From: a phage | Length of the DNA stretch: 64,000 nt | Sequence record: PX994957.1 | Reading direction: 5' to 3' (one strand) | Shown: in pieces, positions 19,159 through 23,502 of the stretch | How positions within the stretch are numbered: position 1 is the stretch's first letter | Layout: each line of letters begins with the position of its first letter | Notes under the pieces: model-generated | The model's input: the letters and a program-made list of their open reading frames with translations, nothing else | Told to the model about the DNA's origin: nothing | Database searches by the model: none | Translations under genes and position numbers: made by a program

Positions 19159-19629
19159 CTAGCGATAAAAACCAAATTGACGATTAGCTTCAACAATCTT
19201 TCTTTCTTCTTCAGACATTCTCCAGCGTAGTCCAACGTCAAAATGAGCCCAGACCATCTTAACAAATGCATTTATATCTTTAATATCTTCAATAATGAAT
19301 GTTTTACTTTTCGAAGGTTGACTCGCTAATTTAACTTTATCATCTTCAAACAGGTCAAAAAGACCATATTCATGAGCTCTTTTATAGCCTTTAATAGTTA
19401 AAGCTTCAGAAGAAGAAAACGGTGAATCAGTATTCTGCAAAATATCTTCAGTATGCTTTATAATTAGAATAACATTTTCTGGATATTTTCTTTCTTTTAT
19501 ATCTTTAATTAAAAAATCCGGATTTTCTGCTAAAGGAATAATTAACGAGCATTTTTTACCAAGAGTATTTACTGATTTACCTTCTTTAGACATAAATTCT
19601 ATTGAATAATGTTTTGCTACTTCAATCAT
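19159..19629 (-). CDS. hypothetical protein
   Basis: 156 aa; ATG 19629. Confidence 0.55.
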
Positions 19630-19786: not shown

Positions 19787-19986
19787 GATTTATCACCATA
19801 GATGTCTCTCATCAATTTAAGCGCTGAGCGTTCTAATTTCTTTTCTTTCTCAGCACTAATCATTGATTTCATCCATTCTTCCGATTCGTTCTGCATTTCT
19901 TTATTTGCTTGTTCAACCCAGCCATCATCAATATACATTGAGTTTGGTCGATTAAACCATTCAAATATTTTCTTTAGGACTTTCAT
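19783..19986 (-). CDS. hypothetical protein
   Basis: 67 aa; ATG 19986. Confidence 0.5.
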
Positions 19987-20455
19987 TCATTTTACCTAAA
20001 ACAATAGTAGGAGCATCGTCAAATTTATGAATTTTTAGCAAATTTGGAGTTAATTTATTCCATAAAGAAGTAATAAAATATGATAGCGCAATTTCTTCCG
20101 CAATTATGAATTTATTTCCCTTATCTCCCTTATCTATTTTCCAGTCATGTACTGAATCATATGAATAGAAGGACAGCGGTTTATTGTTATAAAATGCTTC
20201 ACCAACATCAATATAGTTAGATTTAGTAAATGCTTGAATTGACGTAAATGGAGAATTTTGTACAGTTTCAATAATTCCGATCTTTTTAAGTTTTATTTCA
20301 ACATCTTCTGGAACTGGCATTGAAATAAAATCTTCTACTAGATACATGCTATTGTCATATCTTTTGTCAATCATTACTGCTACAGTAATTGGAACATCCT
20401 TGACAAACGCCATACTAATACTATTAATAAACATTTCAAACAAAATTGCTTCCAT
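19961..20455 (-). CDS. hypothetical protein
   Basis: 164 aa from ATG 20455 with SD GAGGAAAATT; track start is TTG. Confidence 0.55.
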
Positions 20456-20463
20456 AATTTTCC

Positions 20464-20796
20464 TCAATCACAAGATGTAGATGAACAACTAGAATCACAA
20501 GAACTTCCGCATGAATCACTTGCCCATACGTGAACAGGAACATTTGTATCATATGAAGAATTAGAACTTTTAACTTCGTTAGAAGATGTAGGTACTGACC
20601 ATCGCCAAGGATTTTTATAATATTCTTGGGCTTCTTCATAAGTCATAGTAACTGCTTCTACTGTTCCATCTCCCATATAAACATACTCAACTACAGTTAA
20701 AGGAAGGTAGTCATTTGAAATAGGAACTACACCTTCCCCAGGAGTCGTAGAGAAAAAATCCGTAAAGAAACTTTTAAACCAATTAAAGATAAACAC
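20464..20796 (-). CDS. hypothetical protein with Cys/Ser-rich C-terminal tail
   Basis: 110 aa, GTG start after SD GAGAGGT; C-terminus [18 protein letters not shown]. Confidence 0.5.
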
Positions 20797-21002
20797 TACA
20801 AAAAACCTCTCTTGAATTCAACTTGCTTCTCGCCATAATCATATCGAATCTCTGCATTAAATTCGACAGAACCATCTGCGTACATCATAAATGAATGCAC
20901 AACAACTTCTGTGGACCATGGCTGCAGTTCATATTTCTTCATTACATGTCGTGAAATGATAATATCTAAATCTTCATTTGGTTTAATCCAACGATTTAAC
21001 AT
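20796..21002 (-). CDS. hypothetical protein (soc.x-type)
   Basis: 68 aa; ATG 21002 with SD GAGGAGAGCAC. Confidence 0.55.
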   Translation of the reverse strand: MLNRWIKPNEDLDIIISRHVMKKYELQPWSTEVVVHSFMMYADGSVEFNAEIRYDYGEKQVEFKRGFL

Positions 21003-21027: not shown

Positions 21028-21057
21028 TATTATACCATACTCATTTTGGAAAGTAAA
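21028..21057 (-). promoter_or_regulatory. T-even early promoter
   Basis: GTTTAC (21052-21057), 18-nt spacer, TATAAT (21028-21033). Confidence 0.5.
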
Positions 21058-21073
21058 CCGGTAAAATGAAAAA

Positions 21074-21091
21074 GGACTCCCTAGGGAGTCC
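21074..21091 (-). terminator. intrinsic terminator after soc
   Basis: perfect palindrome GGACTCCCTAGGGAGTCC followed on minus strand by CUUUUUCAUUUU. Confidence 0.6.
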
Positions 21092-21099
21092 TTGAATTA

Positions 21100-21377: not shown

Positions 21378-21518
21378 TTACAATTTAGCGGCTTTCCAGA
21401 GTTGTTCAATAATCTCTTGGTCTATTTCTTTAGTTATTTCATTACGTAATAAAGCAGTAAGGGCTTTCGCCCTTTTCTTATTCAACTTTTTGAGTTGACG
21501 TTTATTTAAACAAGCCAT
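21378..21518 (-). CDS. possible 46-aa basic protein; may be non-coding
   Basis: ATG overlaps gp56 stop (TAATG) but no SD; contains GAAA-loop hairpin (21460-21475) and MotA-box-like TGCTTTA. Confidence 0.3.
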   Translation of the reverse strand: MACLNKRQLKKLNKKRAKALTALLRNEITKEIDQEIIEQLWKAAKL

Positions 21519-22109: not shown

Positions 22110-22310
22110 ATGGTACAAAAATTAATGGCACTTGTTAATGCCATAAAAGGTAATAAAAAACGTATAGCTTTTACTATTTCTGCTATGGTAGGAATTTTAC
22201 TCTGGAACTTTATTCTATCACCTGTTGCAATTGCGCATGGTATTAATATTCCAGTAGTTACTCTTGATACATTTGTAGATTTAGCATTTGCTTTAGTTGG
22301 GTTAATTTAA
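22110..22310 (+). CDS. 66-aa hydrophobic protein on the opposite strand between 56 and 61
   Basis: strong SD AAGGAGG (22099-22105) then ATG 22110; MVQKLMALVNAIKGNKKRIAFTISAMVGILLWNFILSPVAIAHG; stop interleaved with gp61 stop. Confidence 0.45.
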   Translation: MVQKLMALVNAIKGNKKRIAFTISAMVGILLWNFILSPVAIAHGINIPVVTLDTFVDLAFALVGLI

Positions 22311-23337: not shown

Positions 23338-23502
23338 TTACTCTTCTTTTTCTTTAGATTCCTCTTTCTTCTTTTTAGGAATCTGTTCAGGACCTTTATT
23401 TACTACAGCGCCCGACGTTGTTCCAGTAGAGATATTTTCAGGATTACCACCTGAATCTCCAGCGACCATATCTTCTTTGATAAATTCTTTATATGTTTTC
23501 AT
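23338..23502 (-). CDS. 54-aa Lys/Glu-rich protein
   Basis: ATG 23502 inside repeat copy A (TAATATG junction); MKTYKEFIKEDMVAGDSGGNPEN; absent from ORF track. Confidence 0.45.
   Translation of the reverse strand: MKTYKEFIKEDMVAGDSGGNPENISTGTTSGAVVNKGPEQIPKKKKEESKEKEE

What the first reader, a model, noticed from the sequence alone, without database searches (positions are those of the whole stretch)
20464..20796. Protein with a Cys/Ser-repeat C-terminal tail
The 110-aa ORF ends [18 protein letters not shown], a low-complexity run of spaced cysteines and serines that is unusual in a phage early region. It could be a metal-binding tail, a substrate for post-translational modification, or a disulfide-rich module. 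The gene appears to start with GTG behind SD GAGAGGT.
Basis: seen in the sequence. Interest (0 to 1): 0.45.

Follow-up and report, generated by a model that had tools for sequence, protein, structure and literature searches.

The report
T4 mrh.1 ortholog, conserved cysteine tail
The ORF is the ortholog of the uncharacterised phage T4 early gene mrh.1, and its odd Cys/Ser tail is a strongly conserved C-terminal motif with two invariant cysteines, always ending Cys-Asp/Glu/Asn, whose function is unknown but which most likely chelates a metal or reacts through its thiols.

Summary
Window 20464-20796 (-) encodes a 110-aa protein ending [18 protein letters not shown]. It starts at GTG behind an AGAGAGG Shine-Dalgarno sequence, exactly where T4 has ATG.

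It is the ortholog of T4 mrh.1 (Pfam DUF7206, PHROG 2031, function unknown). It lies in the early block mrh.2-mrh.1-mrh-srh of a Tequatrovirus that is 99% identical to Sa45lw/Sf23.

The tail is not junk. In 91 full-length cluster representatives from T4-like Enterobacterales phages of many genera, plus a few unrelated phage contigs:
- the penultimate residue is Cys in 91/91;
- the last residue is D/E/N;
- a second Cys lies 4-9 residues upstream in 90 of 91, usually as S-C-D-S;
- only 5 Cys occur anywhere else.

Codons vary freely (TCN/AGY, TGT/TGC), so selection acts on the protein. Only the Tequatrovirus clade has four Cys. AlphaFold2 models the tail as disordered, behind an N-terminal amphipathic helix and a small beta-hairpin.

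The published CRISPRi-ART screen lists T4 mrh.1 as "Semi-Fit". No structure, named family or paper explains it.

My best guess (about 0.35) is a flexible Cys/Asp metal- or thiol-binding effector tail. The rivals are a redox dithiol, a plain docking motif and a substrate for modification. The gene is catalogued but not understood, so interest is moderate.

The parts
20464..20796 (-). mrh.1 ortholog CDS (110 aa plus TGA stop); Pfam DUF7206 / PHROG 2031
   Evidence: ORF list. Pfam 92 bits against a 25.6 cutoff. PHROG 2031 at 3.9e-35. Same position as T4 mrh.1, 88% identical by alignment A3. 100% identical ORF in Sa45lw.
20794..20796 (-). GTG start codon, sharing its first G (20796) with the TAG stop (20796-20798) of mrh.2 (TAGTG), which suggests translational coupling
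   Evidence: T4 has TAATG at the same place.
20806..20812 (-). Shine-Dalgarno AGAGAGG, 9 nt upstream of GTG
   Evidence: Sequence. Conserved as AAGAGG in T4.
20752..20796 (-). Residues 1-15: N-terminal amphipathic, aromatic helix. The family motif is M-I-x-[WF]-[LI]-K-x-[LF]-F.
   Evidence: AF2 helix at 3-15. The motif is present in 84/97 sequences, with a hydrophobic moment similar to the MinD membrane-targeting helix.
20614..20697 (-). Residues 34-61: conserved beta-hairpin [13 protein letters not shown] plus a short helix. This is the only part modelled with confidence.
   Evidence: AF2 strands E34-40 and E46-52 and helix H53-61, pLDDT 72-82. The hairpin recurs in a distant homologue. Y40, G42, D43, G44, E47 and V49 are nearly invariant.
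20521..20613 (-). Residues 62-92: hypervariable, mosaic, disordered linker
   Evidence: Mean column conservation 0.17, against 0.69 for the tail. The linker is replaced or extended in other genera and in the Sf24 mosaic. pLDDT is below 50.
20467..20520 (-). Residues 93-110: the Cys/Ser/Asp tail [18 protein letters not shown]. Cys100 (20497-20499) and Cys109 (20470-20472) are the two family-conserved cysteines; Cys96 and Cys104 occur only in the Tequatrovirus clade.
20466..20502 (-). Two copies of the 10-nt direct repeat TCTTGTGATT (20466-20475 and 20493-20502), each encoding S-C-D. This suggests the tail grew by internal duplication.
20462..20465 (-). SD (GAGG) of the downstream gene mrh, overlapping the mrh.1 stop codon. 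By T4 homology the mrh ATG is at 20453-20455.
   Evidence: Sequence; T4 annotation.
20796..21002 (-). mrh.2 ortholog (68 aa, PHROG 1873), the upstream gene with a 1-nt stop/start overlap
   Evidence: An Mrh.2-like gene precedes mrh.1 in RB69, Merlin and KLB31, but not outside the T4-like phages.
21029..21057 (-). Early-type sigma-70 promoter-like site (TTTACT-17-TATAAT with an extended TG) that would drive mrh.2-mrh.1-mrh-srh
   Evidence: 10 of 12 matches. It lies directly after the soc terminator at 21072-21093. T4 mrh.1 RNA is classed as early.

Best explanation
Shown: the ORF is the ortholog of the T4 early gene mrh.1 (DUF7206). It encodes a small, mostly disordered protein with three conserved elements joined by throw-away linkers:
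- an N-terminal amphipathic helix;
- a beta-hairpin mini-domain ([13 protein letters not shown]);
- a C-terminal Ser/Asp/Gly/Tyr-rich tail with two conserved cysteines, the last always penultimate (...S-C-D-S-(S/G)n-S-C-[D/E/N]-COOH).

Inferred: the tail is the effector end. It would act as a flexible loop that closes around a ligand using the two thiolates, the Asp carboxylates next to them and the terminal carboxylate. The ligand is most likely a metal ion, either free or sitting in the metal centre of a host protein. The Tequatrovirus clade, including this window, would have upgraded the site from Cys2/Asp2 to Cys4 by duplicating the S-C-D unit. The N-terminal helix, which has the same hexapeptide pattern as the MinD membrane-targeting helix, may hold the protein at the inner membrane.

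The gene's identity is near certain. The mechanism is a best guess, and the confidence figure applies to the mechanism.
For: Identity:
- Pfam DUF7206 at 92 bits, PHROG 2031.
- Synteny and alignment with T4 mrh.1.

The tail is functional:
- Penultimate Cys in 91/91; last residue D86/E3/N2; second Cys 4-9 residues upstream in 90/91 (mode 6); 5 Cys in 8263 residues outside the tail.
- The tail (0.69) and hairpin (0.68) are the most conserved segments, against 0.17 for the linker.
- Ser TCN/AGY, TGT/TGC, GAT/GAC and TGA/TAA all vary between orthologs.
- The tail is retained when the linker is swapped and in phage contigs that are not T4-like and lack the hairpin.

Loop closure rather than extended docking:
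- The Cys-Cys spacing varies from 4 to 9 and is filled only by Ser/Gly.

Metal rather than redox:
- An acidic residue flanks the conserved cysteines; D101 and D110 are each 92% conserved.
- One clade has expanded to 4 Cys, and ESCO47 has 3.

The gene matters in vivo:
- T4 mrh.1 is 'Semi-Fit' in CRISPRi-ART, while mrh.2, mrh, srh and soc are 'Not Fit' (PMC11879866 supplement).

N-terminal helix:
- AF2 helix.
- The [WF]-L-K-x-L-F pattern is present in 84/97 sequences and in the verified MinD C-terminus ...KKGFLKRLFGG.
Against: - No metal binding has been measured.
- Only two Cys are conserved, there is no CxxC pair, and no zinc-module profile matches.
- AlphaFold2 gives no ordered site; tail pLDDT is mostly below 50 in the window protein and about 50 in the homologue.
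- The strict C-terminal placement and the upstream Y-D-S-G motif fit a protein-docking motif equally well.
- The protein was not assigned a class in T4 proteomics. Its tryptic peptides, at 53 and 34 residues, are poorly suited to detection.
- The MinD resemblance is a six-residue pattern and could be coincidence.
- The CRISPRi effect is weak (score 0.79, p 0.07).
Confidence: 0.35

Rival explanations
1. Redox-active dithiol tail. The two cysteines cycle between dithiol and disulfide on a flexible arm, as in the C-terminal tail of class Ia ribonucleotide reductase alpha subunits. They would act as a substrate, decoy or trap for host or phage thioredoxin/glutaredoxin, or for a cysteine-dependent host enzyme.
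For: - Two Cys sit in a disordered, acidic C-terminal tail with the last Cys next to the C-terminus.
- The verified RNR tails have the same general design: E. coli NrdA ...DDGCESGACKI and T4 NrdA ...ADDCAACKL.
- A variable Ser/Gly spacer is compatible with closing a disulfide loop.
Against: - There is no catalytic domain and no other conserved Cys to hand electrons to.
- The spacing is 4-9, not 2-4, and the terminal residue is acidic, not K-I/L.
- A simple relay does not explain the gain of two extra Cys in Tequatrovirus.
Confidence: 0.2
2. Plain short linear docking motif. The C-terminal ...Y-D-S-G-S-C-D-S-S-S-S-C-D-COOH peptide inserts into a pocket of a host or phage protein. The cysteines are recognition residues only, and no metal or redox chemistry is involved.
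For: - Strict anchoring at the C-terminus (Cys at -2, an acid at -1, Ser/Gly at -3 in 91/91), plus a conserved upstream Y-D-S-G in a disordered context. This is typical of C-terminal peptide ligands.
- The family is restricted to phages of Enterobacterales, which suggests a host-specific target.
Against: - Variable spacing between the two anchor cysteines is hard to fit into one extended binding groove.
- Cys is rarely the conserved residue of a pure docking motif in a cytoplasmic protein.
- No partner is known.
Confidence: 0.2
3. Substrate for post-translational modification. The N-terminal part would act as a leader or recognition domain, and the Cys/Ser tail would be modified, for example by heterocyclisation, thioether formation or attachment of a cofactor.
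For: - The composition (Ser 47%, Asp 17%, Gly 13%, Cys 10% of the last 20 residues) recalls the Cys/Ser/Gly cores of microcin-B17-type and other ribosomal peptides (from memory).
- The tail is disordered and accessible.
Against: - No cyclodehydratase, YcaO, lanthipeptide synthetase or radical-SAM gene lies next to it in the window or in any of 12 other genomic contexts.
- No NCBIfam precursor model matches.
- At about 95 residues, the part in front of the tail is long for a leader.
Confidence: 0.07
4. The tail has no protein function. It would be slippage-generated low complexity, or would be kept only because its DNA/RNA carries the ribosome-binding site of mrh.
For: - A 10-nt direct repeat lies in the tail-coding DNA.
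- The mrh SD overlaps the mrh.1 stop codon.
- One relative (CT01) carries a frameshift.
Against: - The amino acids are conserved while the codons and the stop codon vary.
- The motif persists where the downstream gene is different or absent.
- The Cys columns are conserved in 96-100% of 50 diverse sequences.
Confidence: 0.02

Closest known systems
Phage T4 Mrh.1 (gene mrh.1, T4p027, UniProt P20706); Pfam DUF7206 (PF23836); PHROG 2031
   Same: Orthologous gene: same position between mrh.2 and mrh, 88% identity, tail identical from D94 to D110, full-length HMM match. A 100% identical ORF exists in phage Sa45lw.
   Different: The window gene starts with GTG instead of ATG and has a linker 3 residues shorter. 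The family has no assigned function, so membership does not explain the tail.
C-terminal dithiol shuttle tail of class Ia ribonucleotide reductase alpha (E. coli NrdA ...DDGCESGACKI; T4 NrdA ...ADDCAACKL)
   Same: Two cysteines on a flexible, acidic extreme C-terminal tail, with the first Cys preceded by acidic residues (and followed by Glu in E. coli NrdA) (versus 40).
   Different: No catalytic domain is attached. The spacing is 4-9 rather than 2-4, the terminus is acidic rather than hydrophobic, and there is no homology. This is an analogy only.
MinD C-terminal amphipathic membrane-targeting helix (E. coli ...KKGFLKRLFGG)
   Same: The N-terminus of the family carries the same hexapeptide pattern [WF]-L-K-x-L-F, with a similar hydrophobic moment, and is modelled as a helix.
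   Different: It is at the N- rather than the C-terminus, the match is only six residues, and membrane binding has not been tested.
Cys/Ser/Gly-rich ribosomal peptide precursors such as microcin B17 McbA (recalled, not retrieved)
   Same: A C-terminal core rich in Ser, Gly and Cys behind a longer N-terminal part.
   Different: No modifying enzyme gene is found in any context, and no precursor model matches. The conserved feature here is exactly two Cys and a terminal acid.

Membership tests
T4 Mrh.1 / Pfam DUF7206 / PHROG 2031 | Full-length profile match above the curated threshold | tested here: met
   PF23836: 92 bits against a cutoff of 25.6, residues 3-110 matching profile 1-107. phrog_2031 at 3.9e-35.
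T4 Mrh.1 / Pfam DUF7206 / PHROG 2031 | Orthologous position: soc - mrh.2 - mrh.1 - mrh - srh on one strand | tested here: met
T4 Mrh.1 / Pfam DUF7206 / PHROG 2031 | N-terminal [WF]-L-K-x-L-F helix, EYVYMGDG hairpin and C-terminal ...S-C-[DEN] | tested here: met
   Alignments A2, A3 and A6; tail statistics.
Structural zinc modules (zinc ribbon, zinc knuckle, metallothionein) | Four or more conserved Cys/His ligands, usually as CxxC pairs or Cys clusters | tested here: not met
   Only two Cys are conserved family-wide and there is no CxxC. Four Cys occur only in Tequatrovirus, spaced CX3CX3CX4C.
Structural zinc modules (zinc ribbon, zinc knuckle, metallothionein) | Match to a known metal-binding domain profile or solved structure | tested here: not met
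   Pfam gives only DUF7206. NCBIfam gives none. PDB sequence profile best E 0.26. Foldseek best E 1.3.
Structural zinc modules (zinc ribbon, zinc knuckle, metallothionein) | Measured metal binding | not testable with these tools
   Needs ICP-MS or a chelator assay on purified protein. AF2 models the tail as disordered, which neither proves nor excludes binding.
Ribosomal peptide (RiPP) precursors | Cognate modifying enzyme encoded next to the precursor | tested here: not met
   The neighbours are Mrh.2, Mrh, Srh and Soc in the window. No such enzyme is annotated or hit by Pfam in RB69, Merlin, CBH8, PWKp18, KLB31 or in the four metagenomic contexts examined.
Ribosomal peptide (RiPP) precursors | Match to a curated precursor family model | tested here: not met
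   NCBIfam: 0 families at E up to 10 for the whole protein and for tails alone.
Redox-shuttle C-terminal dithiol tails (class Ia RNR alpha type) | Two Cys on a disordered acidic tail within about 10 residues of the C-terminus | tested here: met
   Reference tails were verified.
Redox-shuttle C-terminal dithiol tails (class Ia RNR alpha type) | Attached catalytic domain with an active-site cysteine pair to be re-reduced | tested here: not met
   5 Cys in 8263 non-tail residues of 91 proteins. There is no enzyme domain.
MinD-type amphipathic membrane-targeting sequence | Short terminal amphipathic helix with the pattern hydrophobic-L-K-x-L-F | tested here: met
   84/97 family sequences match. 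The MinD C-terminus KGFLKRLFGG was verified, and the hydrophobic moments are similar. AF2 models a helix.
MinD-type amphipathic membrane-targeting sequence | Binds the membrane | not testable with these tools
   Needs GFP-fusion localisation or a liposome binding assay.

The most novel reading that the evidence does not exclude
Mrh.1 would be a new kind of phage host-takeover protein. It would be tethered at the membrane and thread a long disordered tail, ending in a Cys-Asp-COOH thiol/carboxylate 'warhead', into the metal or cysteine active site of a host enzyme. One candidate is the membrane zinc protease FtsH, which degrades sigma-32. That would fit the neighbouring sigma-32-related genes mrh and srh, and the precedent (recalled from memory) of lambda CIII inhibiting FtsH. 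Nothing here tests the target. Only the anatomy (terminal helix, disordered linker, invariant penultimate Cys plus terminal acid) and the weak fitness effect are compatible with it.
Probability: 0.07. Interest if true: 0.75.

Novelty: already known. Interest (0 to 1): 0.4.

Why it matters
T4 is the reference lytic phage, yet close to half of its genes have no assigned function. mrh.1 is one of five purely unknown T4 genes that gave a fitness signal in a genome-wide knock-down screen.

Showing that its strangest feature is also among its two most conserved regions turns an anonymous DUF into a concrete problem that point mutants can address. That feature is a disordered C-terminal motif of two cysteines, always ending Cys-Asp/Glu/Asn, shared across many genera of T4-like phages and even some unrelated phages.

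The experiments are simple: Cys-to-Ser mutants, removal of the terminal Cys-Asp, metal analysis and thiol trapping. If the tail proves to be a metal- or thiol-directed effector, it would add a new small-protein strategy for host takeover. If it is only a docking peptide, it still identifies the part of the protein to use as bait.

Tried and rejected
- phmmer of the protein against 1.84 billion representatives found only family members plus one spurious repeat protein. There are no distant annotated relatives.
With 40-residue tails it gave one non-significant hit, P0100 at E 7.7. The tail is too short and too biased in composition for a database search.
- Two AlphaFold2 runs with a 50-sequence alignment gave mean pLDDT 56-59. 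Only the hairpin was confident. Foldseek against PDB gave nothing (best E 1.3), so I ran no further fold searches.
- The PDB sequence profile gave nothing. NCBIfam, which includes ribosomal-peptide precursor models, gave nothing.
- I looked for a conserved partner or modifying enzyme next to distant members and found none. Mrh.2 is conserved upstream only within T4-like phages.
- Full-text searches for 'mrh.1', 'DUF7206' and 'P20706' found no paper discussing the protein. It appears only in supplementary tables. The Miller 2003 T4 genome review is not held.
- I considered and rejected an exported disulfide module, because the N-terminus is a short amphipathic helix and not a signal peptide.
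- I considered and rejected RNA-level conservation for the mrh ribosome-binding site, because codons and stop codons vary and the downstream genes differ.
- I considered and rejected a phosphopantetheine-type G-D-S site. This was a recalled resemblance only: there is no D-S-L and no helical carrier fold.

Full report
OBSERVATION. The minus strand of window 20464-20796 carries a 110-aa ORF ending ...[23 protein letters not shown]. All four cysteines of the protein (residues 96, 100, 104, 109) lie in the last 15 residues. The start is GTG at 20794-20796, 9 nt downstream of AGAGAGG (20806-20812), and it overlaps the TAG stop of the upstream ORF (TAGTG). Of 512 six-frame ORFs of at least 30 aa in the window, this is the only one with such a tail, and the only one with the N-terminal motif described below.

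IDENTITY. The window is a Tequatrovirus. The 1.2 kb around the ORF is 99.2-99.3% identical to phages Sa45lw, Sf23 and EO1, and 93% identical to T4. The gene order on the minus strand is gp61 primase, gp56 dCTPase, soc, mrh.2, this ORF, mrh, srh, modA.4/.3/.2, modB, modA.

The ORF is the ortholog of T4 mrh.1. It occupies the same position, is 88% identical, and is identical to T4 from D94 to the stop codon. T4 has ATG where the window has GTG, behind the same Shine-Dalgarno sequence. It matches Pfam DUF7206 over its full length (92 bits, cutoff 25.6) and PHROG 2031, both of unknown function.

The Sa45lw ORF is 100% identical. GenBank annotates only its last 70 residues, starting at an internal Met, evidently because the GTG start was missed. 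A terminator-like hairpin after soc (21093-21072) is followed by a strong early-type promoter-like site (21057-21029, TTTACT-17-TATAAT with an extended TG). The block mrh.2-mrh.1-mrh-srh therefore looks like an early transcription unit. T4 mrh.1 RNA is classed as early in the published time-resolved transcriptome (PMC9697503 supplement).

FAMILY ANATOMY. tblastn finds the T4-type protein in 502 phage records, all at least 80% identical. A more divergent member as query reaches 804 records: phages of Escherichia, Shigella, Klebsiella, Yersinia, Salmonella, Enterobacter, Citrobacter and Serratia. The sampled records span Tequatro-, Mosig-, Moon-, Winkler-, Marfa- and Kanagawavirus. A profile search returned 94 cluster representatives.

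Alignments show a modular protein:
- an N-terminal motif M-I-x-[WF]-[LI]-K-x-[LF]-F;
- usually P-G-E-G-V-V-P-I;
- a core [13 protein letters not shown];
- a linker of about 10-90 residues that differs completely between clades;
- often a short hydrophobic stretch ending in W or Y;
- the tail.

Statistics on 91 full-length representatives:

| Feature | Result |
|---|---|
| Penultimate residue | Cys 91/91 |
| Last residue | Asp 86, Glu 3, Asn 2 |
| Residue -3 | Ser 82, Gly 9 |
| Second Cys | 4-9 residues upstream in 90/91 (mode 6), usually within S-C-D-S |
| Cys outside the last 30 residues | 5 in 8263 residues |
| Composition of the last 20 residues | Ser 47.5%, Asp 17%, Gly 13.5%, Cys 10%, Tyr 8% |

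The tail and the hairpin are the two most conserved segments: the mean share of the commonest residue is 0.69 and 0.68, against 0.17 for the linker. Cys100 and Cys109 of the window protein are the family-conserved pair. Cys96 and Cys104 occur only in the Tequatrovirus clade. One other phage, ESCO47, has three tail cysteines.

The tail also survives recombination. Sf24 and 235Ecol030PP carry a 164-aa mosaic in which a linker of the VR26 type (Escherichia phage vB_EcoM_VR26) is spliced between the T4-type body and the T4-type tail. The most distant members (P0094-P0099) lack the EYVYMGDG core yet end ...YDSGSSCDSGGGGGGGCD or similar. They sit in phage contigs that are not T4-like: one type carries DNA ligase and dCMP deaminase genes and occurs on contigs of up to 332 kb, and another carries a family-A DNA polymerase.

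The only disruptions I saw were a 1-nt frameshift in phage CT01 and a few truncated or frameshifted database entries.

SELECTION ACTS ON THE PROTEIN. In the last 18 codons of 17 orthologs, Ser alternates between TCN and AGY. Cys alternates between TGT and TGC, Asp between GAT and GAC, and the stop between TGA and TAA. Within Tequatrovirus most of the differences are synonymous.

The SD of mrh (GAGG, 20462-20465) overlaps the mrh.1 stop codon. That cannot explain the conservation, because the downstream gene and the stop codon differ in other genera. A 10-nt direct repeat TCTTGTGATT (20466-20475 and 20493-20502) encodes S-C-D twice. This suggests the four-Cys version arose by internal duplication.

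STRUCTURE. AlphaFold2 with a 50-sequence alignment gives mean pLDDT 56. It models a helix at 3-15, a hairpin at 34-40/46-52 (pLDDT 72-82) and a helix at 53-61. Residues 69-108 are almost all below 50. A two-Cys homologue (P0016) gives the same hairpin, two low-confidence helices in the linker and a tail at pLDDT about 50.

Nothing else helps. Foldseek against PDB gives best E 1.3. A PDB sequence profile gives best E 0.26. NCBIfam gives no hits, even for the tails alone. An exhaustive phmmer search over 1.84 billion representatives returns only family members and one spurious repeat protein.

EXPRESSION AND PHENOTYPE FROM PAPERS.
- In the T4 multi-omics study, mrh.1 has early RNA but no protein class, whereas mrh, mrh.2 and srh are detected (PMC9697503 supplement). 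The protein yields tryptic peptides of 8, 53, 4, 11 and 34 residues, so non-detection says little.
- In the CRISPRi-ART screen, mrh.1 is 'Semi-Fit' (score 0.79, p 0.069). The authors name it among five semi-fit T4 genes of purely unknown function. mrh.2, mrh, srh and soc are 'Not Fit' (PMC11879866 supplement).
- No paper in the searchable library discusses the protein or DUF7206.

MECHANISM (INFERENCE). Three features constrain the options.
- First, the spacing between the conserved cysteines varies from 4 to 9 and is filled only with Ser or Gly. This fits two thiols that must come together (loop closure) better than two anchors in an extended docking groove.
- Second, the conserved cysteines are flanked by an acid (S-C-D-S ... 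S-C-D-COOH, or D-C in the RB69 group), and the last Cys sits next to the free carboxylate. Together these give a compact set of sulfur and oxygen donors.
- Third, one large clade has added two more cysteines. That is a natural change for a chelating site and is not obviously useful for a two-electron redox relay.

I therefore rank them as follows:

| Explanation | Probability |
|---|---|
| Metal-chelating, or metal-centre- or thiol-directed, effector tail | about 0.35 |
| Redox dithiol tail | about 0.2 |
| Pure docking motif | about 0.2 |
| Modification substrate | about 0.07 |
| No protein function | about 0.02 |

The redox idea rests on an analogy that I checked at sequence level: E. coli NrdA ends ...DDGCESGACKI and T4 NrdA ends ...ADDCAACKL. 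Mrh.1, however, has no catalytic domain to serve.

The N-terminal motif has the same hexapeptide pattern as the membrane-targeting helix of E. coli MinD (...KKGFLKRLFGG). It is present in 84 of 97 sequences and has a comparable hydrophobic moment. Membrane tethering is a lead, not a result.

The boldest reading still allowed is a membrane-tethered protein whose Cys-Asp end plugs a host metalloenzyme such as FtsH. That would fit the sigma-32-related neighbours, but it is pure speculation (about 0.07).

COMPARISON AND NOVELTY. The ORF is a member of the Mrh.1/DUF7206 family, and every defining feature I could list is met. It is not a member of any zinc-module family, ribosomal-peptide precursor family or RNR-type family; defining features of each were tested and not met.

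The gene is already catalogued, and an identical protein is in GenBank, so I file it as already known. What seems not to have been described is that the Cys/Ser tail is a family-wide motif of two cysteines, always ending Cys-Asp/Glu/Asn. It is as conserved as the best-conserved part of the protein, and it is shared beyond the T4-like phages.

VERDICT. The feature is real, the gene is known and the function is unknown. Interest is moderate (0.4). It gives a sharp, cheap experimental handle on one of the few unknown T4 genes with a fitness signal, but it does not overturn anything or settle a long-standing question.

Noticed in passing
window 19159-19629 (-) and 19961-20467 (-): Two paralogous Mrh-family genes lie about 330 bp apart: the modA.3 ortholog and mrh itself. 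Both match Pfam T4_MRH (PF24070) and PHROG 1234 at about 1e-52.
   Followed up: partly
window 21378-21518 (-): Between soc and gene 56 the window has only a 46-aa ORF, where T4 carries the segF homing endonuclease (T4T locus L001 2977-3651). This looks like presence/absence polymorphism of a mobile endonuclease.
   Followed up: partly
window 23338-23502 (-): The 54-aa ORF just downstream of the primase gene (the gp61.1 position) begins MKTYKEFIKE. From memory, this resembles the N-terminal capsid-targeting sequence of T4 internal proteins. The rest is Gly/Ser/Lys/Glu-rich.
   Followed up: no
window 22110-22310 (+): A 66-aa, very hydrophobic ORF lies on the opposite strand between genes 56 and 61. 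An ORF on the opposite strand at the same position is annotated in Sa45lw (Sa45lw_32) and RB69 (ORF029w). It may be a small membrane protein.
   Followed up: no
L002 (Sa45lw) 2056-2388; protein P0004: GenBank annotates this gene in Sa45lw as 70 aa starting at internal Met41, because the GTG start was not used. The full 110-aa ORF is identical to the window protein.
   Followed up: yes
L025 (Shigella phage Sf24) 547-1041; protein P0003: A 164-aa mosaic mrh.1: T4-type N-terminal body, an inserted VR26-type linker (MEEIIRQPEKAGNVG...IDTAPII), then the T4-type four-Cys tail. This is evidence of recombination between clade-specific modules.
   Followed up: yes
L026 (Shigella phage CT01) 547-887: A single-base frameshift at the GDG codons splits mrh.1 into two annotated ORFs. 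It could be a sequencing error or a genuine pseudogene.
   Followed up: partly
window 19961-20467 (-) versus L002 1562-2059: The window Mrh has a 3-residue insertion ([11 protein letters not shown] against KIDKGNKF), which is a 9-bp tandem duplication. This accounts for the 9-base length difference from Sa45lw. The ORF listing also extends mrh to a TTG start 12 nt upstream of the ATG used in T4.
   Followed up: partly
L020 6001-6288, L023 358-963, L024 4858-5151: Distant tail-bearing relatives occur in phage contigs that are not T4-like (P0096 and P0097 carry a precomputed DUF7206 hit, P0099 does not). One type has Band_7, dCMP deaminase and DNA ligase genes and occurs on contigs of up to 332 kb; another has a family-A DNA polymerase. 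All keep ...YDS(G/S)...SCDS...CD; P0096 and P0099 lack the EYVYMGDG core, whereas P0097 has it. The tail behaves as a transferable module.
   Followed up: partly
window 20466-20475 and 20493-20502 (-): An exact 10-nt direct repeat TCTTGTGATT encodes Ser-Cys-Asp twice. Slippage between the copies would delete 27 nt and still leave a protein ending ...SCD.
   Followed up: partly
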